A stretch of DNA of 63,327 bases from a virus (lineage: Duplodnaviria; Caudoviricetes). The translations under genes and the position numbers were made by a program. Under the pieces are notes generated by a model. It was not told the origin of the DNA. It saw only the letters and a program-made list of their open reading frames with translations, and ran no database searches. The DNA is taken from positions 1 to 63,327 of IMG/VR virus record IMGVR_UViG_3300025325_000020. The stretch is one strand, 5' to 3'. Positions within the stretch are counted from its first letter, which is position 1; each line of letters opens with the position of its first letter. Positions 15,201 through 35,370 of this stretch are shown here, one piece after another.

Positions 15201-15440
15201 TCAAGCCTCCTTTTCCACGATCACCACCCAGTCCGCGCCCACATCGAACGGCTTGCTCACCTGGCGCAGGCCGTAGGCGGCCAGGTACTCGGCGTAGAGG
15301 CCGAATGGCACCGATACGGCGTCTTTCACCGCCACCGGCTCATCTGTCATCTCGCCGGTGATGGGATCTTGCCCGTAGACGAAGCAGCCCTGGCCAGGCG
15401 GGGGCGGCAGGGGAGAGGCCTTGCGATGGTCAGGTTTCAT
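15201..15440 (-). CDS. Hypothetical protein
   Basis: Overlaps the upstream stop. Confidence 0.45.
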   Translation of the reverse strand: MKPDHRKASPLPPPPGQGCFVYGQDPITGEMTDEPVAVKDAVSVPFGLYAEYLAAYGLRQVSKPFDVGADWVVIVEKEA

Positions 15441-16122
15441 CGTCGCTTTCCGCCATGCGGTCTCCCAGGCAGCCCAGGCACAACCCATTCTGGACAGCGC
15501 CCGGCTCGCCGCATTCGGTGCACGCGGCGTCCATATTCACGACCAAAGCGGCCTCCCGGTGTTTCCCGGTCTGGATTATCTCGTCCAGGCCTTGCGACAA
15601 TACCGCTTCTTCCAGTTCGGCGTCGGGCTCGGTGTTGTCGCTTTCGCCATCGCCCTCGCTCTCCGGAAGGCTGGAAGGATCCACGGCCAGCACACCGCCT
15701 TCCCCCACCGGCAGCCGTAGCTGGCAGGCCCGCTCGAAGGTGTCCTGCAGCCGGAAGAGGTCCGGCGTCCACAGCCCGTAACGGCGGATGATCTCACCGA
15801 ACTCTTCCACGTCGTGGCCGCGTAGCCTACCGTTCGTGTCGATGTGGCACAGCTCATGATCGACGAGCGCCTTGCGCTGCATGGCGGTCAGGTTCTCCCA
15901 GGTGTCCAGCGCAAGCCAGATCAGGTAATCCAGGGCCAGGTGCGGGGTGTATTTCGGGGAGACCTTGGAGGTGTTGCCGATAGTAATCCTGCCGTTTTTC
16001 TTCATCCCATCGCTGCGGAAGACGAAGCCGATGCGCCAGGCTGCCAGCCAGGGGTGATGCTCGTAGATCAGCTCGTTGGCCAGGGTCAATACGGATGGGT
16101 TGACTTTGGACCAGGTGATCAT
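15430..16122 (-). CDS. Putative phage metallopeptidase
   Basis: 'ALVDHELCH...HDVEEFGEIIRRYG' (HExxH). Confidence 0.8.
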   Translation of the reverse strand: MITWSKVNPSVLTLANELIYEHHPWLAAWRIGFVFRSDGMKKNGRITIGNTSKVSPKYTPHLALDYLIWLALDTWENLTAMQRKALVDHELCHIDTNGRLRGHDVEEFGEIIRRYGLWTPDLFRLQDTFERACQLRLPVGEGGVLAVDPSSLPESEGDGESDNTEPDAELEEAVLSQGLDEIIQTGKHREAALVVNMDAACTECGEPGAVQNGLCLGCLGDRMAESDDET

Positions 16123-16622
16123 ATCGCCTCCACGCTCTCGCGGATTAAGACCGGCGCGCCCTCTACTTCCAGGATTTCGCTGTAGATCCGAATCCTCTCC
16201 CGGCAGTGAGCAGCAGAAGCATCCCATTGGATAGCATCGAAAGCCGCGGCCAGGGCTTCCCAATCCCCGGCGTCTAGCCGCCGGTCGAAGTGGAACCGGT
16301 CCTCCAACTCTTTCCGGCGCTCCCGCAGGGGGTTGACCTTGCCCCAATACTCTTCCCAGTAAGCTGCGGCGGCTTCGTCCTGCTCACCCTTGCCCACCAG
16401 CCGCCCGGCTTCCTCGATCAGCTCGAGCAGCTCGGCCCGCGAGGGGAACCACTTCGAGTGGTCCATGTGCAATTCGGCTGCTTGGCGTAGGACGGCGGCC
16501 TCGACGGCGGCGAAGCGCTGCGTCCAGCTATCCAGCAGGGCCGCCGGATCCTCCACGTCGAAGCGCGGGTAATTGGCTTTCAAGAGCTTGAAAATCTCGA
16601 GAACGTCTTTTTCAGTTGCCAT
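16119..16622 (-). CDS. Helicase loader/inhibitor (SPP1 G39P-like)
   Basis: 'LLKANYP...W...SKWFPSRAEL'; directly downstream of the initiator. Confidence 0.7.
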   Translation of the reverse strand: MATEKDVLEIFKLLKANYPRFDVEDPAALLDSWTQRFAAVEAAVLRQAAELHMDHSKWFPSRAELLELIEEAGRLVGKGEQDEAAAAYWEEYWGKVNPLRERRKELEDRFHFDRRLDAGDWEALAAAFDAIQWDASAAHCRERIRIYSEILEVEGAPVLIRESVEAI

Positions 16623-18717: not shown

Positions 18718-19638
18718 ATGCTTTTTGCAATGCTCCAAGGGATAAATGATTTTTTGGATCGATCGGGGTATGCGCAAACGACTCAAGAGCTATATCGATA
18801 TTATTTGCTCCACTTTGCCGCCTGGATGGGGGATTGCGGTCTGGAAACGGGCCGCCTCGAAAGGGACGGTCTGGCGGCCTGGCTGGACGCCTTCGGCTGG
18901 CAGGGGGATACGCGCTACGCGGCGGCCTGCGCGGTGAAGGCGTTCCTGCGCTATGCTTGCGGGAGCGCCCACCCGGCTTTAGCCTGCAAGGTCAGGCGGC
19001 GCAAGCCCCGCCCGCAGAGAACGCTGACCTGCGCTCAGGTCCAGGCTTTACTCGAGAGCATCAACACGGCCCGCGCCTCGGGGGTGCGCAACCTGGCGCT
19101 CGTTACGCTCATGCTGGATACCGGCTTCCGCGCGGCGGAGGTGTGCCGTTTGCAGGCCCGCGACATGGACATGCAGCGCCGCGCCGCCTGGGTGATCGTC
19201 AAAGGGGGGGAGTGGGGGTTGGGGGTGTATTGCGCGTACACGGCGGCCTGCCTGGCCGCCTGGCTGCCGGTGCTGGAGCGCCTGGCCAGGCCGGGGGTGG
19301 GCGCCTTGTTCATCGGGGTGGAGACCCACGCCGGCTGGCCGCTTACCCCCGATGGCCTGCGCTCCACGTTCCGCGCCCTGGGGAAGCGGGCCGGCCTCGG
19401 CCTGATCAGCCCGCACGACCTGCGGCGCACGTTTTGCACGATGATGCTGGCCGCCGGCGCCCCGACTCGCCTGGTGCAACTGGCCGGGCGCTGGAGCAGC
19501 CTGGCGATGGTGGAGCGGTACAGCCGGATGCTCGATACGTTCGCCGCCGTGCGCTATTCGCCGGTCATGGCGGCGATGGGACTGCCGGGCGCGATGGGAC
19601 TGCCGGGCGGAGACGGGCAGGAACGAAAAAACCCCTAA
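18718..19638 (+). CDS. int: Tyrosine recombinase/integrase (compact, Xer-like size)
   Basis: R (TGFR), K (VKGG), HxxR (HDLRR), W (GRW), Y (ERY); GGAGG RBS. Confidence 0.92.
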   Translation: MLFAMLQGINDFLDRSGYAQTTQELYRYYLLHFAAWMGDCGLETGRLERDGLAAWLDAFGWQGDTRYAAACAVKAFLRYACGSAHPALACKVRRRKPRPQRTLTCAQVQALLESINTARASGVRNLALVTLMLDTGFRAAEVCRLQARDMDMQRRAAWVIVKGGEWGLGVYCAYTAACLAAWLPVLERLARPGVGALFIGVETHAGWPLTPDGLRSTFRALGKRAGLGLISPHDLRRTFCTMMLAAGAPTRLVQLAGRWSSLAMVERYSRMLDTFAAVRYSPVMAAMGLPGAMGLPGGDGQERKNP

Positions 19639-19705
19639 CCTTGCTTACCGTTCATCGTGCGAACGGCAAGCGATCGGCTTACGTGCCAATTCATTTTACC
19701 ATCTT

Positions 19706-19778
19706 GCCGCCCTAGCTCATCCGGTAGAGCAGGCGTTTCGTAAACGCCAGGTGATCGGTTCGACCCCGATGGGCGGCT
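19706..19778 (+). tRNA. tRNA-Thr(CGT), CCA not encoded
   Basis: Acceptor GCCGCCC/GGGCGGC, D arm GCTC/GAGC, anticodon stem GGCGT/ACGCC with loop TTCGTAA, T arm ATCGG-TTCGACC-CCGAT. Confidence 0.9.
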
Positions 19779-19820
19779 CTGGTTTTATTTGAACCTTATT
19801 ATGTTGTTAAGGTGCCACTT

Positions 19821-19924
19821 TCCGAGGTCGGCGCCCACGGCGGAGAGCCGTAGCGATTTTTGCGGAAGGTTACTTCCGTGTATGCAGTGACCCAACCGGC
19901 GACGCCGTGGGCGCCGATCTCGGA
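19821..19924. repeat. 22-bp inverted repeat enclosing an inner palindrome (candidate structured RNA)
   Basis: TCCGAGGTCGGCGCCCACGGCG / CGCCGTGGGCGCCGATCTCGGA, one G-U on the + strand. Confidence 0.7.
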
Positions 19925-19951
19925 GCCAATGCTGTTTTTGCATTGGCGTTT
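19925..19951 (+). terminator. Terminator-like hairpin
   Basis: GCCAATGC/GCATTGGC then GTTT. Confidence 0.45.
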
Positions 19952-19955
19952 CCAG

Positions 19956-20174
19956 TTATCTGGGCTTCTTGATCGGGCTGTTCGTGGGCTTTACGCCTGC
20001 AAACAAGGCCACCAGCAGGAAGAAGAGCCAGAAGGCAATCGAGAGCGCGTCAAGCGGCAGGATTCTACCCACCAGAAGCCAGCTCAGCACAAATACGCTG
20101 AGCCAGGCGATAGCCAGCAACGGGATTCGGCCAAGCTGGGAGAGGTCATTTACAAAATCGTCATCATGGTTCAT
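19956..20174 (-). CDS. Small two-TM membrane protein
   Basis: Two hydrophobic helices; GAGG RBS. Confidence 0.5.
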   Translation of the reverse strand: MNHDDDFVNDLSQLGRIPLLAIAWLSVFVLSWLLVGRILPLDALSIAFWLFFLLVALFAGVKPTNSPIKKPR

Positions 20175-20206
20175 GGGGCAACCTCACATGAGAAAGACTG
20201 TGCGGC

Positions 20207-20752
20207 ATGAGGGCTAAAACAACCCTGGTCGTGATGGGCATAGCCGTGTTTCTGTGCGCCTTGACCGTCGTGGCCGTGCAGATCATGAGCACTGTCGGGC
20301 AGGCGGACCGCAAGACCGGAGCAGCTTTGCAATCCCCTGCGCCCAGCCGGACGCCGGGCCCCACCCTCGCCCCCACCCCGACTCTGCCTCCGGCCGAGCA
20401 GCTCCTGGCGGACCTGAGCGTCCTGGGCGGGGAGGCCGGGCTCGAAGACGGCGCGGTCGCGGTCCGCTGGAACATCGGCGACGCGTTTACGGACGAAGGC
20501 GCACGCCGTCGGGCGAAGGTGGAGGCGGCCGGCTTTTTGCGCAAGATCGCCGAAAGCGGGATAGACTACACCGGCGTCTGGCTCTCCGGCTGGCTGCCGC
20601 TGGTGGACGTGTATGGAGTCGAGACGAACACCGAGGTGGTGCGCCTGTACTATTCCAGGGAGACCCTGGGGAAGATCGACTGGCGCAATTTCGACAAGGA
20701 CAATACCTGGCTCATCGCCGATGAAGGTGAAGTACACCGGCTGATGCGCTGA
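20207..20752 (+). CDS. Membrane-anchored extracellular protein with Pro/Thr linker (superinfection-exclusion candidate)
   Basis: N-terminal TM; 'PSRTPGPTLAPTPTLPP'; lysogeny-region position. Confidence 0.6.
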   Translation: MRAKTTLVVMGIAVFLCALTVVAVQIMSTVGQADRKTGAALQSPAPSRTPGPTLAPTPTLPPAEQLLADLSVLGGEAGLEDGAVAVRWNIGDAFTDEGARRRAKVEAAGFLRKIAESGIDYTGVWLSGWLPLVDVYGVETNTEVVRLYYSRETLGKIDWRNFDKDNTWLIADEGEVHRLMR

Positions 20753-20879
20753 AATGCTTTGAAAGAGGGAAAGACAATTTATCATGGCGTTACCCGCCTA
20801 ATCGGCGGTTAATGGCTCCTGCTCCTGGGTGACTGGCGAGTCGCTGCGTTACGGGAAACCGTAACGGCGGATCAGGGAA

Positions 20880-20914
20880 GAGCACCCTGGCTTATAGCTG
20901 GGGTGCTCGATTTT
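20880..20914 (+). terminator. Terminator hairpin between convergent genes
   Basis: GAGCACCCTGGC/GCTGGGGTGCTC then GATTTT. Confidence 0.6.
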
Positions 20915-21164
20915 AACCTACCAAATCTCCGATTTCTACTTCCAGCATCGTGGCGAGGATCTTCAATGTCTTGGTCGTGGTGTTCGGTTCCCCGTCGTAC
21001 AGGCGCTTGGCCGTATCGATGCCAATGCCCCATTCGATACAACGACCGAGGAACTTTGCCCGATCCCACCCTTTGGCTTCGAGTAGAGCCGGAATCTTAC
21101 TGATCGGTCTCGGCTCTCCCATGACTGCCTTCCTTTCCTGAATTTGCGAAATCGCGATATCCAT
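20913..21164 (-). CDS. Cro/C1-type HTH regulator
   Basis: 'GIGIDTAKRLY...TLKILATMLEVEIGDL'; alternative start at 21122. Confidence 0.8.
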   Translation of the reverse strand: MDIAISQIQERKAVMGEPRPISKIPALLEAKGWDRAKFLGRCIEWGIGIDTAKRLYDGEPNTTTKTLKILATMLEVEIGDLVG

Positions 21165-21194
21165 ATTCACCTCACAAGTAAAGCTATTTCCAGG

Positions 21195-21223
21195 ATTGTA
21201 GCAAAATAGTGGGGATTTGTCAA
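21195..21223 (-). promoter_or_regulatory. Leftward sigma70-type promoter (PL)
   Basis: TTGACA-17-TACAAT with extended TG. Confidence 0.85.
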
Positions 21224-21257
21224 TATGAAACACTTGTATTTTTGCAAGGAAAAATAC

Positions 21258-21286
21258 TTGACAAAGGAATTAGATTATGCTATATT
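21258..21286 (+). promoter_or_regulatory. Rightward sigma70-type promoter (PR)
   Basis: TTGACA-17-TATATT with extended TG. Confidence 0.85.
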
Positions 21287-21480
21287 TAAGACGACTCGCC
21301 AGTCAACGACCCATCGAAAGAGTGATGGTCATCCAGGAGCGTAGCATTTCCCCCTCGTAAGATTTTCAATCGAGACGGCTGCGCTCAGCAAGTCGGACGA
21401 ATTCATCGATATTATTTTAGCACCAGCCCGGTGCATGGTCTTATTTCCGACCGTACAGATTCGCAAGGAGCATCGCAGCC

Positions 21481-21831
21481 ATGTCCCAAACCACTTTCTA
21501 CAGCCGTAACTTTGTAGGCTGGCCCCCCGTCCACCTCTCCCAGTTCAACAATCCCAACTCCGCCTACTGGCGCGAGCGGGCCAACGCCGCTGCCAACCGC
21601 TTCGACGGGGCGGCGCATGAATTCATGACCAAGGCCGAATGGGAATGGCTCAATGACCAGGTGTACGCCTGCCTGGGCCAGACGGCTACCTGGAAGGCGT
21701 TCTACGAGACCTACCAGAAGATCCTGGATGGGCTGAAAACGGGCGTGACCATGCAAGCCATAGCCTTTGCGGCGGGAGTATTGGCGGAGCAGCCAGAATC
21801 GGAAGAGAAAGTTTTGGAGGGAGCGAAATGA
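21481..21831 (+). CDS. Early hypothetical protein
   Basis: AAGGAG RBS; first ORF after PR. Confidence 0.7.
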   Translation: MSQTTFYSRNFVGWPPVHLSQFNNPNSAYWRERANAAANRFDGAAHEFMTKAEWEWLNDQVYACLGQTATWKAFYETYQKILDGLKTGVTMQAIAFAAGVLAEQPESEEKVLEGAK

Positions 21832-22229
21832 AGACATTACAAGAAGCAGTCGATCAGCGTATGGCCGAGCGCGCTGAAGCGCAAAGGCTGGCCGATGAAA
21901 AGGCCGCAATGGAGCAGCGGGCTGAAGAAGAGCGTGAAATGTGGGTCGCTCAGGAAATCCGCAAGGCGCTGGAAGAGCAGTACGACATGAGCCTGGGGGA
22001 TCTATCTGTGAAGGCCAGCGAAAGGCTTGATGGCCTTTTCACCATTACCATCCAGGGTTTTGAACGTCACGATGATCTCGTCGAGCTTTTACAGCCAGGC
22101 TATTTCAGAAATGGGGCAGCGGGCTTACAGGCTGAGACAGTCCAAGGAAAATATAAGGCCACTAATTACGGCAACTACTATTTTTGCGAAGACTTGCTCG
22201 ATGCTTTGATCGTGGCTATGGGACGGTGA
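21828..22229 (+). CDS. Hypothetical protein
   Basis: GGAGG RBS, ATGA coupling. Confidence 0.65.
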   Translation: MKTLQEAVDQRMAERAEAQRLADEKAAMEQRAEEEREMWVAQEIRKALEEQYDMSLGDLSVKASERLDGLFTITIQGFERHDDLVELLQPGYFRNGAAGLQAETVQGKYKATNYGNYYFCEDLLDALIVAMGR

Positions 22230-22243
22230 AAGGAACGATTAAC

Positions 22244-22870
22244 ATGATTACCGAAATCACCGTAAACGGCCATATTTACACCGTCGCCCACTCCGACCAC
22301 GGCGATATCTCCGTGACCGGCCAGGTCAGGACCGCGGCCGGCTCGCTCTGGCCCAACCTGGTGGACGGCTTGTACGCCGCCTTTCGCGAGCTGGATATCC
22401 CGGCCGGGAAACTGGAGCACGAGAGAAATGGGGCGCTGGTATTCCACTTCGGCTCCGGTTTGGCCTTAGATATTGCCCGCAAGGCGTTCAAGGCATTTAT
22501 TGCGGAGGATGCGATTCTTACCGGCCTGCGCGCGGGCGCCGAAACCTTGTTCCGCCGCCACCGCCTGGCGGAGTTGGCCGGTCTTGCCCTGGGGCGGGGG
22601 CTCTTTTACCGCGATCCATCCAGGGAGATCCAGCGCAGAATGAGCGAGCGCCTGGATGTACTGGCCGGTGAGTTCAAGCATGTCTATAAGAACTATATGC
22701 TTGCCGAGCGTGACTGGACGTACTGGCTCGTCCAGCTCCACGACTCGTTCCAGGCAGCGCGCCGCATCCCTCTGCAGGACGGCGACCGCGAGTGGCTGCG
22801 GGAGCGCGTCGCCGATGTCTACGAGCGCATTCATGGGGACGTTGTCGAGCGCGTCTCGGAGGACTGGTAG
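22244..22870 (+). CDS. Hypothetical protein
   Basis: AAGGA RBS. Confidence 0.6.
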   Translation: MITEITVNGHIYTVAHSDHGDISVTGQVRTAAGSLWPNLVDGLYAAFRELDIPAGKLEHERNGALVFHFGSGLALDIARKAFKAFIAEDAILTGLRAGAETLFRRHRLAELAGLALGRGLFYRDPSREIQRRMSERLDVLAGEFKHVYKNYMLAERDWTYWLVQLHDSFQAARRIPLQDGDREWLRERVADVYERIHGDVVERVSEDW

Positions 22871-25001: not shown

Positions 25002-25523
25002 ATGCTTTGTTTAACGATTACTCAACCTTGGGCAACACTGACCGCAATCGGGGCGAAGAATATCGAGACCCGCTCCTGGGGAACCAAATATCGCGGCCCG
25101 TTGGCTCTCCACGCGGCCAAGGGTTTCCCGGGGGACGCGCGTACGCTTTGTTTTCGGCAGCCATTCCATGACGTCCTGGTCACCCACGGGTATATCGATA
25201 TCGAAAGCGAGCGGGTAGAAAGCCTGTGCTGGGATCGGTTTCCGTTGGGCGCGGTAGTCGCCGTGTGCACGCTGGTGGGTTGCGTGCGGTTCGGTTATAT
25301 GCCGGTATGGTTTGATCCACCGACGGGGACGATTGCCAAATCCTATGAGCCTCACGGCGGTTTTATCCAGATCCCTCCAGATAAGGACGATCCCGAATAC
25401 TCCTTCGGTGATTATTCTACCGGGCGCTATGCCTGGATTCTTTCCGATATCCGCCCTTTGCCCGAGCCTGTCCCGGCCCGCGGCGCCCTCGGCCTGTGGG
25501 AATGGCAGGGAAAAACGCCATGA
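25002..25523 (+). CDS. ASCH domain protein
   Basis: 'LTITQPWA...GAKNIETRSW..YRGPLALHA...ARGALGLW'. Confidence 0.88.
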   Translation: MLCLTITQPWATLTAIGAKNIETRSWGTKYRGPLALHAAKGFPGDARTLCFRQPFHDVLVTHGYIDIESERVESLCWDRFPLGAVVAVCTLVGCVRFGYMPVWFDPPTGTIAKSYEPHGGFIQIPPDKDDPEYSFGDYSTGRYAWILSDIRPLPEPVPARGALGLWEWQGKTP

Positions 25524-25720
25524 AAATCAAGATCGTTTTTATCGCCTTGCTCCTCTCAATCCTGCTCCTGGGCGCGCTGGCGGCCATGGATATCCAGGCT
25601 TATCTGCAATCTGCGCCGGGGATTGCCACCCTGACCGGCGCGGCCGGGGAGTTCCATGTTCAGCTCACGCAGATGTCTGTCATCGAAACCGCGCTTGCCA
25701 CGCCGGGAGCGACGCCGTGA
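25520..25720 (+). CDS. Small protein with N-terminal TM/signal
   Basis: Hydrophobic N-terminus; coupled at both ends. Confidence 0.5.
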   Translation: MKIKIVFIALLLSILLLGALAAMDIQAYLQSAPGIATLTGAAGEFHVQLTQMSVIETALATPGATP

Positions 25721-31200: not shown

Positions 31201-31378
31201 ATATGTGCTACATATGCCTTGCCACATGACCAATCGAATAACGGGGCGTTTTGCTTTTTGTCCTGAGCCGTCGCTTTCCACGAATTGCATATTCGCGGGC
31301 GAAACGCCCTCCATTAGCGGACTCACGTCCCCTGGCTGGTCATGTGGCAATGACGGCGCTAATGGAGGGCGTTTTGAT

Positions 31379-31954
31379 ATGGCTAGAAAACAATCGGCAA
31401 GAGGGAAGACCGTGACAAGTCATGGTTATGTGCTTGTGTGGAAACCAGAACATCCAGGAGCAGATGTAAGAGGATATATCTACGAGCACCGCTTGGTTGG
31501 TGGTCGAATATTGGGGAGGCCACTTTTTTCAAGCGAGCAGGTTCACCACATTGATGGGGATAAGCAAAACAATAGCCCTGAAAACTTGATGGTGGTTTCG
31601 GGTGCAAAAGAACACCGGGTATTGCACCGGAAGAAACCCACCGGGCGGAGGATGCCCGGAGAAGACAACTCTGTGGTCTATTGTGCCTGTGGTTGTGGTC
31701 AAATGTTTAATAAATATGATTCGGGCGGTAGGCCAAGGAAGTTTATCAGTGGGCACAATCCACCGTCTTCTCCGACTAAGGATTTGATTGTAAGTATCCT
31801 TTCCAGTGGCCCAAAGCTAACATCTCAGCTAATAAAACTTCCGCAGGGAAAGCCCGCTATAGCTTCGGCTATCAGCAAGTTACACAGAAAGGGATTGATA
31901 AGGCAGGTTCGCCACGGGATATGGGAATTAGCTAAGGAGGAAAGAAATGGGTAA
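31379..31954 (+). CDS. HNH endonuclease with CxCGCG motif and winged helix
   Basis: 'YEHRLV...VHHIDGDKQNN..ENL', 'CACGCG'. Confidence 0.85.
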   Translation: MARKQSARGKTVTSHGYVLVWKPEHPGADVRGYIYEHRLVGGRILGRPLFSSEQVHHIDGDKQNNSPENLMVVSGAKEHRVLHRKKPTGRRMPGEDNSVVYCACGCGQMFNKYDSGGRPRKFISGHNPPSSPTKDLIVSILSSGPKLTSQLIKLPQGKPAIASAISKLHRKGLIRQVRHGIWELAKEERNG

Positions 31955-34282: not shown

Positions 34283-34666
34283 ATGCGATTCGTATTGATT
34301 GAAAACAATGAAGACTTCCCGAACGATGGCGAAACCTGCTGGTATTGGGACACAGATCGTCCAGTGGTCGGGAAACGTGAGAGAAAAGATGGATCTTGGA
34401 TTGCTGTACAATGCTATTGCAAAAAAGACCCTAACCAATTCAGGAAAATAGATAATTTGCGACTTCTTTTCACCGATCAAACCGAATATTATTGTGTTTG
34501 CCCAAATTGTTATGATGTTTATCGGCGTATGCAATGGTCGGGCAGCACACATGGTGGATCCGGTTGGCGGAGTAGAGCCGAGAATTATTTAGGCTTTCAC
34601 CAGAGAAAAAAGAATTGGTGTGAGTTTTGTGACCCCGTTTTTGGCAATGGTGGTTGGGCCGTTTAG
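34283..34666 (+). CDS. Cys-rich hypothetical protein (lower GC)
   Basis: GGAG RBS; several CxC/CxxC motifs. Confidence 0.5.
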   Translation: MRFVLIENNEDFPNDGETCWYWDTDRPVVGKRERKDGSWIAVQCYCKKDPNQFRKIDNLRLLFTDQTEYYCVCPNCYDVYRRMQWSGSTHGGSGWRSRAENYLGFHQRKKNWCEFCDPVFGNGGWAV

Positions 34667-34683
34667 AGCCGCTAAGGAATCTT

Positions 34684-35370
34684 ATGGGTACTATCTTGCT
34701 TGATCCACTCGACAAAACCGGTATTGCCTGGGCGCAAAAGACAGTGACAGAGTATCACTACCGTCACAGCCCGATGGATGTTCGCTGCTCCGTGGAGGGC
34801 TATGCTGTGCTCCTGGAGAATTACCGGGTAGGCCTGCTCTTATTCGGTAGGCCGGAGGCGACCCGCTGTTATCCCTGGTATGGGTCGGTGGAAGAAGCGG
34901 GTTCGGGATTGGTGGAGGTCACCCGCTGGCAAGTGCTCAATCTTGCGCGTGTCTGGCTGTCATCCGCCGTCCAGGTCGGGGGCAGCCTATGCACGCCTGA
35001 CCTGGTGCCAGGCTATTATGACCGCAAGGGCATCTGGCGCTCGACCCTGGCCAGCACCGTGATCGGGACGGCGGCTCAGCGGATCGGCTTCGATTACCTG
35101 GTGCGCCGCCCGCCGGTCTTCCTGGATGAGCCATATCAGATAGAGTGGCTGCTTAGCTATTGCGATCCCGCCTACCACAAAGGCACGATCTACCGGGAGT
35201 CTGGCTTTCAACTTTACAGGACCAACGCCGCCGGACTGATGACCTGGAGGATCCGGCTGCCAGAGCTCACCCAGGAGCAATTGGGGGAGATCAATTATCG
35301 GGCAAAGAAGAGCAAGCGGTCGCAGAGTTGCAGAGCGAAGCGGGCGCAAATTGGTTTACCCCTGGGGTGA
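34684..35370 (+). CDS. Mom-like DNA modification protein, copy 2
   Basis: Colinear paralog of 30499-31200. Confidence 0.75.
   Translation: MGTILLDPLDKTGIAWAQKTVTEYHYRHSPMDVRCSVEGYAVLLENYRVGLLLFGRPEATRCYPWYGSVEEAGSGLVEVTRWQVLNLARVWLSSAVQVGGSLCTPDLVPGYYDRKGIWRSTLASTVIGTAAQRIGFDYLVRRPPVFLDEPYQIEWLLSYCDPAYHKGTIYRESGFQLYRTNAAGLMTWRIRLPELTQEQLGEINYRAKKSKRSQSCRAKRAQIGLPLG

What the first reader, a model, noticed from the sequence alone, without database searches (positions are those of the whole stretch)
20759..21405. Candidate small RNA complementary to the structured leader of PR: possible RNA-based immunity
Seen: + strand 20821-20843 GCTCCTGGG-TGACTGGCGAGTCG is complementary to two separated segments just after PR: CGACTCGCCAGTCA (21292-21305) and TCCAGGAGC (21332-21340). 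That is 14+9 bp, with a hairpin (GACCCATC...GATGGTC) looped out between them. The 20.8-kb segment lies between hairpins, after a weak TTGAAA-15-TATCAT and before a terminator. The leader folds on itself (CGACT/AGTCG, GAGCGTAGC/GCTGCGCTC), and pairing would disrupt both stems. Only a short Cro-like HTH, and no CI with a peptidase domain, is recognisable. Established: P4 CI RNA and P1 C4 RNA confer immunity through split complementarity. Inference: an analogous RNA switch operates here.
Basis: partly seen in the sequence, partly recalled or inferred. Interest (0 to 1): 0.78.

Follow-up and report, generated by a model that had tools for sequence, protein, structure and literature searches.

The report
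Possible phage antisense RNA against early leader
An uncultured soil phage carries a short structured non-coding stretch that is complementary to the very start of its main early transcript, which may be an RNA layer of lysogeny control but has no expression or comparative support yet.

Summary
20830-20843 is a perfect 14-nt inverted copy of 21292-21305, and 20821-20833 matches 21328-21340 at 12 of 13. The leader copy is therefore the same 23-nt unit interrupted by a 22-nt hairpin plus a repeated GTCA.

A 14-nt inverted repeat alone is unremarkable: 226 of 678 shuffled windows had one. The split 14+8 composite occurred in 0 of 678.

The left arm sits in a non-coding, strongly folding stretch on the + strand (-69.8 kcal/mol) that ends in a hairpin plus GATTTT. 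The right arm begins within 1-2 nt of the predicted start of a near-consensus PR.

Cofolding gains 25.4 kcal/mol, more than any of 818 random windows. Two of 8 preselected windows came close.

Several things are unproven or negative:
- No RNA run holds the region.
- No relative with reachable DNA carries it.
- There is no Rfam match.
- The candidate promoter has a 15-nt spacer.
- The predicted effect on the ribosome site is small.

My best reading, at about 0.4, is a trans-acting antisense RNA that damps the early operon. It works like P1 C4 or P4 CI but is not a member of that family. Rivals are paired protein-binding sites, a neutral duplication remnant, a nut-like motif and an inversion switch.

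The parts
20207..20752 (+). 181-aa ORF with an N-terminal hydrophobic segment, a probable lysogeny-expressed accessory gene. The structured RNA region may be its 3' UTR.
   Evidence: GC by codon position is 0.65/0.49/0.82, so the + frame is the real one. The opposite 204-aa ORF shows the mirrored pattern. No Pfam or PHROG family. Atlas neighbours are Chloroflexota hypotheticals at 0.86, a lead only.
20759..20785 (+). Candidate promoter TTGAAA-15 nt-TATCAT for an independent small RNA.
   Evidence: Read: each hexamer matches 5 of 6, but the spacer is 15 nt. Not listed by the promoter scan.
20786..20816 (+). Hairpin 1 of the structured RNA.
   Evidence: Minimum-free-energy and centroid folds.
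20817..20877 (+). Three-way junction. It holds the anti-leader hairpin (stem 20828-20834/20839-20845, loop GGCG 20835-20838) and a second hairpin (20847-20866).
   Evidence: Two G:U pairs in the anti-leader stem exist only on the + strand.
20820..20843 (+). Anti-leader core: 24 nt predicted to pair with the PR leader.
   Evidence: Inverted repeats I1 and I2; intermolecular pairs listed.
20880..20916 (+). 13-bp hairpin followed by GATTTTAA, a likely intrinsic terminator of the + strand RNA. It abuts the stop codon of the convergent HTH gene.
   Evidence: Inverted repeat I3; fold. The 4-T tail is below the scan threshold.
20913..21164 (-). 83-aa Cro/C1-type HTH protein, the presumed repressor.
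   Evidence: P0002 is 100% identical and 83 aa. HTH_26 at E 0.0023 for this protein; 20 of 32 family members match HTH_26, best E 3.4e-10.
21195..21223 (-). PRM-like promoter TTGACA-17-TACAAT with TG, driving the HTH gene.
   Evidence: 11 of 12 hexamer matches.
21236..21257 (.). 22-bp palindrome (8-nt A/T-rich arms, 6-nt spacer) abutting the -35 of PR. This is the only palindrome between the two promoters and is a candidate operator.
   Evidence: (inverted 10-mers 21236/21248, 1 mismatch) and reading. The operator function is inferred.
21258..21286 (+). PR-like promoter TTGACA-17-TATATT. The predicted start is about 21292-21294.
   Evidence: 11 of 12 hexamer matches. The start site is inferred from spacing.
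21292..21305 (+). Target block 1 at the 5' end of the leader. On its own it forms a 4-bp hairpin with loop CGCC (21297-21300), complementary to the loop GGCG of the anti-leader hairpin.
21308..21330 (+). Hairpin looped out between the two target blocks.
21331..21341 (+). Target block 2 (11 predicted pairs, including one G:U at 21332).
21337..21386 (+). Leader helix P2 (21337-21345 with 21378-21386). Its 3' strand can alternatively pair with 21467-21480 next to the start codon.
   Evidence: P2 probability 0.59 and alternative 0.40 in the free leader; 0 and 0.85-0.92 with the target blocks blocked.
21465..21831 (+). Shine-Dalgarno AAGGAG (21465-21470) and the first early ORF (116 aa, 21481-21831), an orphan.
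   Evidence: The only relative among 5.8 billion proteins is a 99% identical copy. No Pfam or PHROG family.

Best explanation
The window is an uncultured temperate phage from soil and groundwater metagenomes. A structured RNA of about 120-130 nt lies on the + strand between the stop of a 181-aa accessory gene and the stop of the convergent HTH repressor gene. It is either a small RNA with its own weak promoter or the 3' UTR of the accessory gene. It carries a 24-nt anti-leader core.

This core can pair in trans with the first 50 nt or so of the transcript from PR, the near-consensus early promoter 380 nt further right. The pairing forms two helices (13 and 11 bp) around a looped-out hairpin.

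Initiation would be by the complementary 4-nt hairpin loops (GGCG and CGCC). Pairing would remove the leader's own 5' closing stem and helix P2.

The consequence is inferred to be lower expression of the early operon. It could come through cleavage or destabilisation of the duplexed 5' end, premature termination, or a shift of the leader towards the form that covers the ribosome site.

That would make the RNA a second layer of immunity beside the protein repressor.

Shown: the sequence complementarity, its non-randomness, its position, and the predicted folds and energies. Inferred: that the RNA is made, that the two RNAs meet, and what pairing does.
For: (1) Split inverted repeat: 14 nt perfect plus 13 nt at 92%. 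The composite occurred in 0 of 678 shuffled windows.

(2) Both arms are non-coding. No similarity extends beyond the 23-nt unit: the local alignment of the flanks scores 28.5 for the unit only, against a null mean of 16.3 and maximum of 26. The core is therefore kept while the flanks are unrelated.

(3) The left arm lies in a stretch that folds at -69.8 kcal/mol with z -6.3 and 0 of 200 shuffles as good. The complementary strand over the same coordinates gives -53.3. The difference comes from G:U pairs that exist only on the + strand.

(4) A 13-bp hairpin plus T-run closes the stretch on the + strand.

(5) Complementarity stops at 21292, within 1-2 nt of the predicted start of PR (TTGACA-17-TATATT, 11 of 12). 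It therefore coincides with the RNA's 5' boundary.

(6) The one mismatch (21332) is G:U compatible for + strand with + strand pairing.

(7) Cofold gives -143.8 against -63.5 plus -54.9, a net -25.4 kcal/mol with 27 intermolecular pairs. The 818 random 206-nt windows averaged -7.4 (sd 3.7), the best being -22.3.

(8) A variable spacer (0 against 26 nt) between the two blocks is tolerated by RNA pairing but not by a composite DNA site.

(9) The leader is predicted to have two nearly isoenergetic forms (-54.1 and -53.9). Blocking the target blocks abolishes one of them.
Against: - The candidate promoter has a 15-nt spacer and the T-run has only 4 T. Neither passes the scan.
- The anti-leader core is mostly buried in stems, and only 4-nt loops are exposed.
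- Thermodynamic specificity is modest. Of 8 windows preselected by duplex energy, 2 gave comparable cofold gains: 35160-35365(+) at -25.2 and 25490-25695(-) at -23.2.
- z-scores of the two strands are alike (-5.39 and -5.43).
- The equilibrium cost of opening the ribosome site rises only from 6.35 to 7.62 kcal/mol when the target is blocked. 35 of 150 shuffled controls do as well.
- The target lies about 125 nt upstream of the Shine-Dalgarno, and no convincing terminator is seen in the leader.
- There is no Rfam match.
- The one relative whose DNA could be read (L003, HTH 42% identical over 55 residues) has a leader of about 45 nt and no such RNA module.
- L003 shows an inverted repeat with one arm on its PR -35 and spacer. 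That fits a DNA-level site better.
- A protein repressor candidate is present.
Confidence: 0.4

Rival explanations
1. The two arms are DNA sites for a protein (the 83-aa HTH protein or another factor) that flank the repressor gene. One sits at +1 to +15 of PR as a roadblock, and the other lies beyond the gene's 3' end as an auxiliary site, with or without looping.
For: - Each arm contains a small palindrome (GACT-4 nt-AGTC).
- The geometry, with arms either side of the repressor gene about 450 bp apart, recalls flanking operators (recalled from lambda, 186 and TP901-1, not from a call).
- The distant relative L003 has a 13-of-14 inverted repeat 573 nt apart, with one arm on its PR -35 and spacer, which is not transcribed from PR.
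- A 13-of-15 direct repeat links 21332-21346 to 21189-21203, which overlaps the PRM -10.
Against: - The half-sites are only 8 bp centre to centre. Cro/C1-type dimers usually need about 10 (recalled).
- The second block is displaced by 26 bp in one copy, which would break a composite protein site.
- An 83-aa protein has little room for an oligomerisation domain that could loop DNA.
- A separate 22-bp palindrome abutting the PR -35 is a better operator candidate.
- The L003 repeat is near chance level by my estimate (about 0.1 expected in 1151 nt).
- The 13-of-15 direct repeat is also near chance level (about 0.3 expected).
Confidence: 0.2
2. The repeat is a by-product without function. It would be a short inverted duplication or template-switch event, possibly made when the 72-aa/181-aa accessory module was inserted between the tRNA and the repressor gene, or it is a rare coincidence.
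For: - L003 has the integrase fragment and a tRNA 3' fragment directly beside its HTH gene. The module that holds the left arm therefore looks like an insertion.
- A 14-nt inverted repeat alone is common (226 of 678 shuffles).
- CCAGGAGC-like words are over-represented in this genome: 13 matches against 3.95 expected.
- Near-copies of the core occur at 25561-25574 and 35267-35279, inside genes.
- No variation was seen in 4 runs, so selection cannot be shown.
Against: - The composite occurred in 0 of 678 shuffles.
- Both arms fall in the small non-coding part of the genome.
- One arm sits exactly at a predicted transcript start, and the other in a strongly folding, terminator-closed stretch.
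- There is no decayed similarity in the flanks.
Confidence: 0.2
3. Both copies are the same RNA motif read in the same sense on divergent transcripts. The leftward transcript from PRM would run past the HTH gene, and the rightward one is from PR. A protein would recognise the motif, as with lambda nut sites or HK022 put sites.
For: - The arrangement is inverted in DNA and lies downstream of two divergent promoters.
- It consists of a small hairpin plus a linear block with variable spacing, as in boxB/boxA (recalled).
- The hairpin after the HTH stop has a poor U-tract on the - strand, so read-through is possible.
Against: - There are no leftward genes to serve. To the left lie the 181-aa gene, tRNA-Thr and the integrase, all on the + strand.
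- The left hairpin has 7 pairs on the + strand but only 4 on the - strand.
- No sequence resembling boxA as I recall it is present.
- No antiterminator was recognised.
Confidence: 0.07
4. The arms are crossover sites of an invertible 448-bp segment that carries the HTH gene, PRM and PR. Flipping it would disconnect PR from the early genes.
For: - Inverted repeats exactly bracket both promoters and the repressor gene.
- A tyrosine recombinase gene lies 1.2 kb to the left.
Against: - There is no serine invertase and only one tyrosine recombinase, which sits beside a tRNA as an integrase would.
- The right arm is interrupted by 22+4 nt.
- In contigs of 4 runs, every piece crossing either arm is collinear with the window and no inversion joint is listed. 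Contigs drop minority forms, so this is weak.
Confidence: 0.04

Closest known systems
P1/P7 C4 RNA and P4 CI RNA (immunity by small processed antisense RNAs)
   Same: - A phage-encoded small structured RNA acts in trans on a phage early or antirepressor transcript.
- It acts through more than one short block of complementarity.
- It would act in the lysogen to keep lytic functions off.

c4's pairing to ant mRNA and its role in heteroimmunity are described in PMC12197685 (passages seen). The P4 CI details are recalled.
   Different: - No match to any Rfam model.
- The RNA here lies in a separate unit on the far side of the repressor gene. It is not upstream in the target's own transcript.
- There is no sign of RNase P-type processing.
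- The blocks are contiguous in the RNA and split in the target.
- The target is the extreme 5' end, about 125 nt before the ribosome site, and not the ribosome site itself.
P22 sar, lambda OOP and anti-Q, BTP1 STnc6030 (antisense RNAs of temperate phages)
   Same: Short phage RNAs that pair with phage mRNAs to tune the lysis-lysogeny choice or exclusion (PMC12197685 passages; PMC7067206 abstract and passages).
   Different: Those are encoded opposite their targets and are fully complementary. Here the two loci are 450 nt apart on the same strand, with 24 nt of split complementarity.
N15 CA RNA controlling antC (recalled, no call)
   Same: A small RNA that shuts an anti-immunity operon of a temperate phage which also has a protein repressor.
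   Different: It is processed from the same operon and acts by termination.
Lambda nutL/nutR and HK022 putL/putR (recalled)
   Same: Related short elements inverted in the DNA, placed after divergent promoters on either side of the repressor gene.
   Different: They need leftward and rightward early operons. Here the genes to the left are on the + strand.

Membership tests
C4/CI antisense RNA family (P1, P7, P4) | Sequence and structure match to the curated covariance model | tested here: not met
   The Rfam gathering scan of the whole window found only the tRNA. The E<=10 scan of 20650-21550 found only a chance-level fluoride hit at E 3.5.
C4/CI antisense RNA family (P1, P7, P4) | The RNA is cut out of the same transcript that carries its targets | tested here: not met
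   The candidate RNA ends at 20912. PR starts near 21292, and the HTH gene lies on the opposite strand between them. Processing itself cannot be tested.
C4/CI antisense RNA family (P1, P7, P4) | Two separate blocks of complementarity to the target | tested here: met
   13 and 11 predicted pairs around a looped-out hairpin. The split is in the target only.
C4/CI antisense RNA family (P1, P7, P4) | The target covers a ribosome site or lies before a terminator, so that pairing stops translation or transcription | tested here: not met
   The target is at 21292-21341 and the Shine-Dalgarno at 21465-21470. Ribosome-site opening cost changes by +1.27 kcal/mol, matched by 35 of 150 controls. No terminator is listed in the leader.
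Cis-encoded antisense RNA (sar, OOP type) | Transcribed from the strand opposite its target at the same locus | tested here: not met
   The two loci are 448 nt apart and both are read on the + strand.
Trans-acting base-pairing small RNA (general kind) | Own promoter or 3' UTR origin, an intrinsic terminator, and a transcript detected | tested here: inconclusive
   The hexamers match 5 of 6 each but with a 15-nt spacer. A 13-bp hairpin is followed by 4 T. Neither passes the scan. No RNA run was listed.
Trans-acting base-pairing small RNA (general kind) | Complementarity kept by compensatory change in relatives | not testable with these tools
   HTH relatives P0003 (87%) and P0004 (80%) exist, but their DNA was not found in any collection. 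Four runs are identical across the region.
nut/put-type antitermination sites | Same-sense copies downstream of two divergent early promoters, each followed by genes | tested here: not met
   The genes left of the left arm are on the + strand.
Invertible DNA switch | Both orientations present in sequence data | tested here: inconclusive
   No inversion joint in the contigs of 4 runs, but contigs cannot show minority forms.
Invertible DNA switch | A dedicated invertase next to the segment | tested here: not met
   No Resolvase-family match. The single tyrosine recombinase sits beside tRNA-Thr.
Operator pair of a Cro/C1-type repressor | Palindromic sites overlapping the promoter, repeated, with half-site spacing near one helical turn | tested here: inconclusive
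   The arms hold a GACT-4-AGTC palindrome, 8 bp centre to centre, at +1 to +15 and not over the hexamers. Binding cannot be tested.

The most novel reading that the evidence does not exclude
In a phage of an uncultured soil bacterium (possibly Chloroflexota, a lead only), the 3' end of a lysogeny-expressed accessory transcript doubles as an immunity RNA. It clamps the first 50 nt of the early lytic transcript through kissing 4-nt loops and two helices, and flips a two-state leader. Immunity specificity would then be set jointly by a minimal Cro-sized repressor and an RNA. This would be an independent invention of the P1/P4 principle outside the enterobacterial phages and with a different layout. 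A 13-nt perfect match to the same core at 35267-35279 would be a second target in a later gene.
Probability: 0.2. Interest if true: 0.7.

Novelty: new variant of a known kind. Interest (0 to 1): 0.45.

Why it matters
RNA-based control of the lytic switch is known from a handful of enterobacterial phages. If it also operates in an unrelated soil phage with a different layout (a trans-encoded RNA beside the repressor gene, targeting the 5' end of the early transcript), then RNA layers of immunity are probably common and missed by protein-centred annotation.

The case is directly testable. Both promoters are near the sigma-70 consensus, so a two-plasmid reporter in a laboratory strain with compensatory mutations would decide it.

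If it is not an RNA device, the repeat still marks an unusual control site at the transcript start of PR.

Tried and rejected
Relatives:
- Single-protein scans of viral contigs found no relative with the 116-aa ORF, the HTH protein or the 285-aa early protein.
- The integrase gave only a 38% relative with a different layout and no tRNA.
- The split DNA motif gave 0 matches in viral contigs.
- HTH alignments A1 and A3 found nothing in genome, viral or metagenome contigs.
- A5 found nothing in genome contigs and one distant locus, L003, in viral contigs.
- blastn of 19600-22300 and tblastn of the HTH protein against cultured phages gave no match.
- The 116-aa ORF has only a 99% copy among 5.8 billion proteins.
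- The listing of cluster members gave no accessions for P0003 or P0004.

Expression and variation:
- No RNA holder was listed among 21 runs, which says nothing either way.
- Contigs of 4 DNA runs were identical across 20306-21827 where covered. They gave no covariation data and no inversion joint.
- Parts without cover are not interpreted.

Thermodynamics:
- RNAduplex of the 36-nt core against 6,326 windows did not single out the leader. The leader scored -47.9, while several GC-rich windows scored -48 to -54.
- I therefore dropped duplex energy as evidence and used cofold differences instead.

Switch model:
- The idea that pairing frees an anti-Shine-Dalgarno strand is structurally possible.
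- It is not supported at equilibrium. I keep it only as one possible kinetic route.

Other leads:
- Unpaired-probability measures changed little.
- The Protein Atlas gave only weak leads for the 181-aa and 116-aa proteins.
- A profile search of solved structures gave only weak XRE-type hits.
- Supplementary files were not opened. Supplementary Table S1 of PMC12197685, said in the text to list 38 phage sRNAs without a described function, may bear on novelty and was not seen.
- I found no description of this arrangement in the listings of two literature searches. These searched only the held library.
Full report
**What the window is.** The window is a complete IMG/VR virus record of 63,327 nt. 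It is linear, and CheckV puts it at 78% complete. It is held by DNA runs labelled soil, groundwater and sediment metagenomes.

The neighbourhood of the finding is a lysogeny and immunity region, laid out as follows:
- A tyrosine integrase at 18718-19638(+).
- tRNA-Thr(CGT) at 19706-19779(+).
- A 72-aa membrane-like ORF at 19956-20174(-).
- A 181-aa ORF at 20207-20752(+). Its codon-position GC of 0.65/0.49/0.82 shows it is the real frame.
- A 160-nt non-coding stretch.
- An 83-aa Cro/C1-type HTH gene at 20913-21164(-).
- Back-to-back near-consensus promoters: PRM TTGACA-17-TACAAT on the - strand and PR TTGACA-17-TATATT on the + strand, each 11 of 12.
- A leader of about 190 nt.
- A rightward operon starting at 21481. 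It includes a Cas4/RecE-like exonuclease, a ParB-like nuclease, methyltransferases and later the structural genes.

A leftward operon with a replication initiator and a DnaQ-like exonuclease starts near 18.7 kb. No Peptidase_S24, HTH_3 or Resolvase match exists anywhere in the record.

**The observation.** It holds. The repeat finder reports 20830-20843 and 21292-21305 as 14 nt, 100% complementary. It reports 20821-20833 and 21328-21340 as 13 nt, 92% complementary.

Read together, the leader carries the same 23-nt unit as the left site. The leader copy is interrupted by 22 nt (21306-21327) that form a hairpin, and GTCA is present on both sides of the interruption.

On chance:
- The 14-mer has only these two exact copies in the window.
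- It is the only perfect inverted repeat of 14 nt or more with arms more than 150 nt apart.
- A 14-nt inverted repeat 100-1000 nt apart is still not rare: 226 of 678 Markov shuffles of the window had one.
- The composite is rare. 12 or more plus a collinear second block of 8 or more occurred in 46 of 678 shuffles, 13+8 in 12, and 14+8 in 0.
- Similarity does not extend beyond the unit.
- Both arms lie in non-coding DNA.

I take the repeat as real and probably maintained, with the caveat that CCAGGAGC-like words are over-represented in this genome (13 found, 3.95 expected).

**Anatomy of the left site.** On the + strand, 20786-20916 folds into four parts:
- a hairpin (20786-20816);
- a three-way junction (20817-20877) holding the anti-leader hairpin, with stem 20828-20834/20839-20845 and loop GGCG;
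- a second hairpin within that junction;
- a 13-bp hairpin (20880-20908) followed by GATTTTAA.

The fold is -69.8 kcal/mol, z -6.3, and 0 of 200 shuffles fold as well. The complementary strand over identical coordinates reaches only -53.3, because several pairs are G:U on the + strand. The z-scores of the two strands are alike.

The stop codon of the convergent HTH gene overlaps the T-run. The upstream hexamers TTGAAA and TATCAT are each 5 of 6 but 15 nt apart. Neither this promoter nor the 4-T terminator passes the simple scans. The stretch has no ORF of note and matches no Rfam family, even at E<=10.

The RNA could equally be the 3' UTR of the 181-aa gene.

**Anatomy of the right site.** Complementarity begins at 21292, which is 6 nt after the -10 of PR. 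That is within 1-2 nt of the expected start, so the first block is the 5' end of the early transcript.

On its own the block forms a 4-bp hairpin with loop CGCC, the complement of the GGCG loop at the left site.

The 3' strand of that second helix can instead pair with 21467-21480, between the Shine-Dalgarno and the AUG. The two forms are nearly isoenergetic (-54.1 and -53.9), with probabilities of 0.59 and 0.40. Blocking the two target blocks gives 0 and 0.85-0.92.

**Would the RNAs pair, and to what end.** Cofolding of 20792-20914 with 21290-21495 gives -143.8 kcal/mol against -63.5 and -54.9 alone. There are 27 intermolecular pairs:
- 20831-20843 with 21292-21304;
- 20820-20830 with 21331-21341;
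- 3 more pairs.

The net -25.4 kcal/mol exceeds all 818 random 206-nt windows (mean -7.4, sd 3.7, best -22.3). However, 2 of 8 windows chosen for strong duplex energy came close: 35160-35365(+) at -25.2 and 25490-25695(-) at -23.2. Plain duplex energy did not single out the leader at all.

The attractive switch model, in which pairing frees an anti-Shine-Dalgarno strand, is not supported at equilibrium. The cost of opening the ribosome site rises only from 6.35 to 7.62 kcal/mol, and 35 of 150 controls with a shuffled middle segment do as well.

The step from pairing to an effect is therefore open. Candidates are cleavage or decay of the duplexed 5' end, termination, or a kinetic version of the switch.

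**Comparative and expression evidence.** None could be obtained for or against.
- The phage lineage is thinly sampled. The first early ORF is an orphan.
- The HTH protein has 87% and 80% relatives, but their DNA is in none of the searchable collections.
- A full HMMER search found 33 representatives of a family of small HTH proteins. 20 of 32 aligned members match HTH_26.
- Only one distant member could be reached, L003, at 42% identity over 55 residues.
- L003 has an integrase fragment and a tRNA 3' fragment directly beside the HTH gene, a leader of about 45 nt and no comparable RNA module. The module holding the left arm thus looks like an insertion in this phage.
- L003 does have a 13-of-14 inverted repeat 573 nt apart, with one arm over its PR -35 and spacer. 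This is a weak hint that flanking DNA sites may be a habit of this family.
- Four DNA runs were identical over the region, with no inversion joint.
- No RNA run was listed.

**Weighing the readings.** The split block with a variable spacer argues for an RNA-level device. So do the G:U-dependent + strand structure, the + strand terminator, and the end of complementarity at the transcript start. With the genes to the left on the + strand, the antisense version fits better than a same-sense nut-like motif. I put it at 0.4.

The other readings I rate as follows:
- A protein-binding pair of sites: 0.2. It is helped by the palindromic core of each arm, the L003 hint, and a 13-of-15 direct repeat linking 21332-21346 to the PRM -10. 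It is hurt by the 8-bp half-site spacing, the 26-bp displacement, and a better operator candidate at 21236-21257.
- A functionless duplication remnant or coincidence: 0.2.
- A nut- or put-like motif: 0.07.
- An inversion switch: 0.04.

**Comparison with what is known.** In function the closest are P1/P7 C4 and P4 CI. These are small phage RNAs that hold lytic or anti-immunity operons down through short split complementarity. c4 is described in PMC12197685 (passages seen); P4 CI and N15 CA are recalled.

This candidate is not a member of that family. It has no model match, is not in the target's own transcript, and its target is not at a ribosome site.

It is also not a cis-antisense RNA like sar, OOP or STnc6030 (PMC12197685 passages; PMC7067206 abstract and passages).

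If real, it is a new variant of a known kind. Two literature searches (listings only) showed nothing like this layout.

**Verdict.** This is a well-founded computational hypothesis with a real and non-random sequence basis, but no expression, covariation or mechanistic support yet. Interest is 0.45.

Noticed in passing
window 21828-22243: Contigs of two runs (X3, a 54.7-kb contig, and X5) join 21827 to 22244. A natural variant of the phage therefore lacks 416 bp, essentially the whole 133-aa second early ORF.
   Followed up: no
window 19706-19779; L003 about 2735-2790: A complete tRNA-Thr(CGT) sits 68 nt after the integrase gene. Contigs of other organisms match only 19706-19752 or 19706-19763 and then diverge. 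In the distant relative L003, a tRNA 3' fragment and an integrase N-terminal fragment lie directly beside the HTH gene. The attachment site probably overlaps this tRNA.
   Followed up: partly
window 31219-31374: Two long perfect inverted repeats are interleaved: 14 nt at 31219-31232 with 31337-31350, and 18 nt at 31302-31319 with 31357-31374. They lie in the intergenic stretch just upstream of an ATG at 31381. If transcribed, this would be a pseudoknot-like arrangement.
   Followed up: no
window 35254-35279 and 25561-25582: 35267-35279 is a perfect 13-nt complement of the anti-leader core (20820-20832), with two further 5-bp blocks beside it. It lies inside the 238-aa ORF 34654-35370. 25561-25574 on the + strand is a 14-nt same-sense near-copy of the core, inside the Cas4-like exonuclease gene. 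These may be a second target or a composition effect.
   Followed up: partly
window 21236-21257: A 22-bp A/T-rich palindrome (8-nt arms, 6-nt spacer) abuts the -35 of PR. It is the only palindrome between PRM and PR and a candidate operator for the HTH protein.
   Followed up: no
window 21189-21203 and 21332-21346: A 15-nt direct repeat (13 of 15) links the PRM -10 region to the second target block of the leader. It is near chance level by my estimate.
   Followed up: no
window 19828-19842 and 19903-19917: A perfect 15-nt inverted repeat 75 nt apart lies just after the tRNA. It encloses a smaller terminator-like hairpin at 19837-19851 with a T-run.
   Followed up: no
window 15430-16347 (-): A 305-aa ORF in the leftward operon matches a PHROG annotated as transposase (phrog_513, E 7.8e-18).
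   Followed up: no
window 21277-21306 (-): A third promoter-like site on the - strand (TTGACT-18-TAGCAT, 9 of 12) faces PR. Its -35 is formed by the end of the right arm of the repeat.
   Followed up: no
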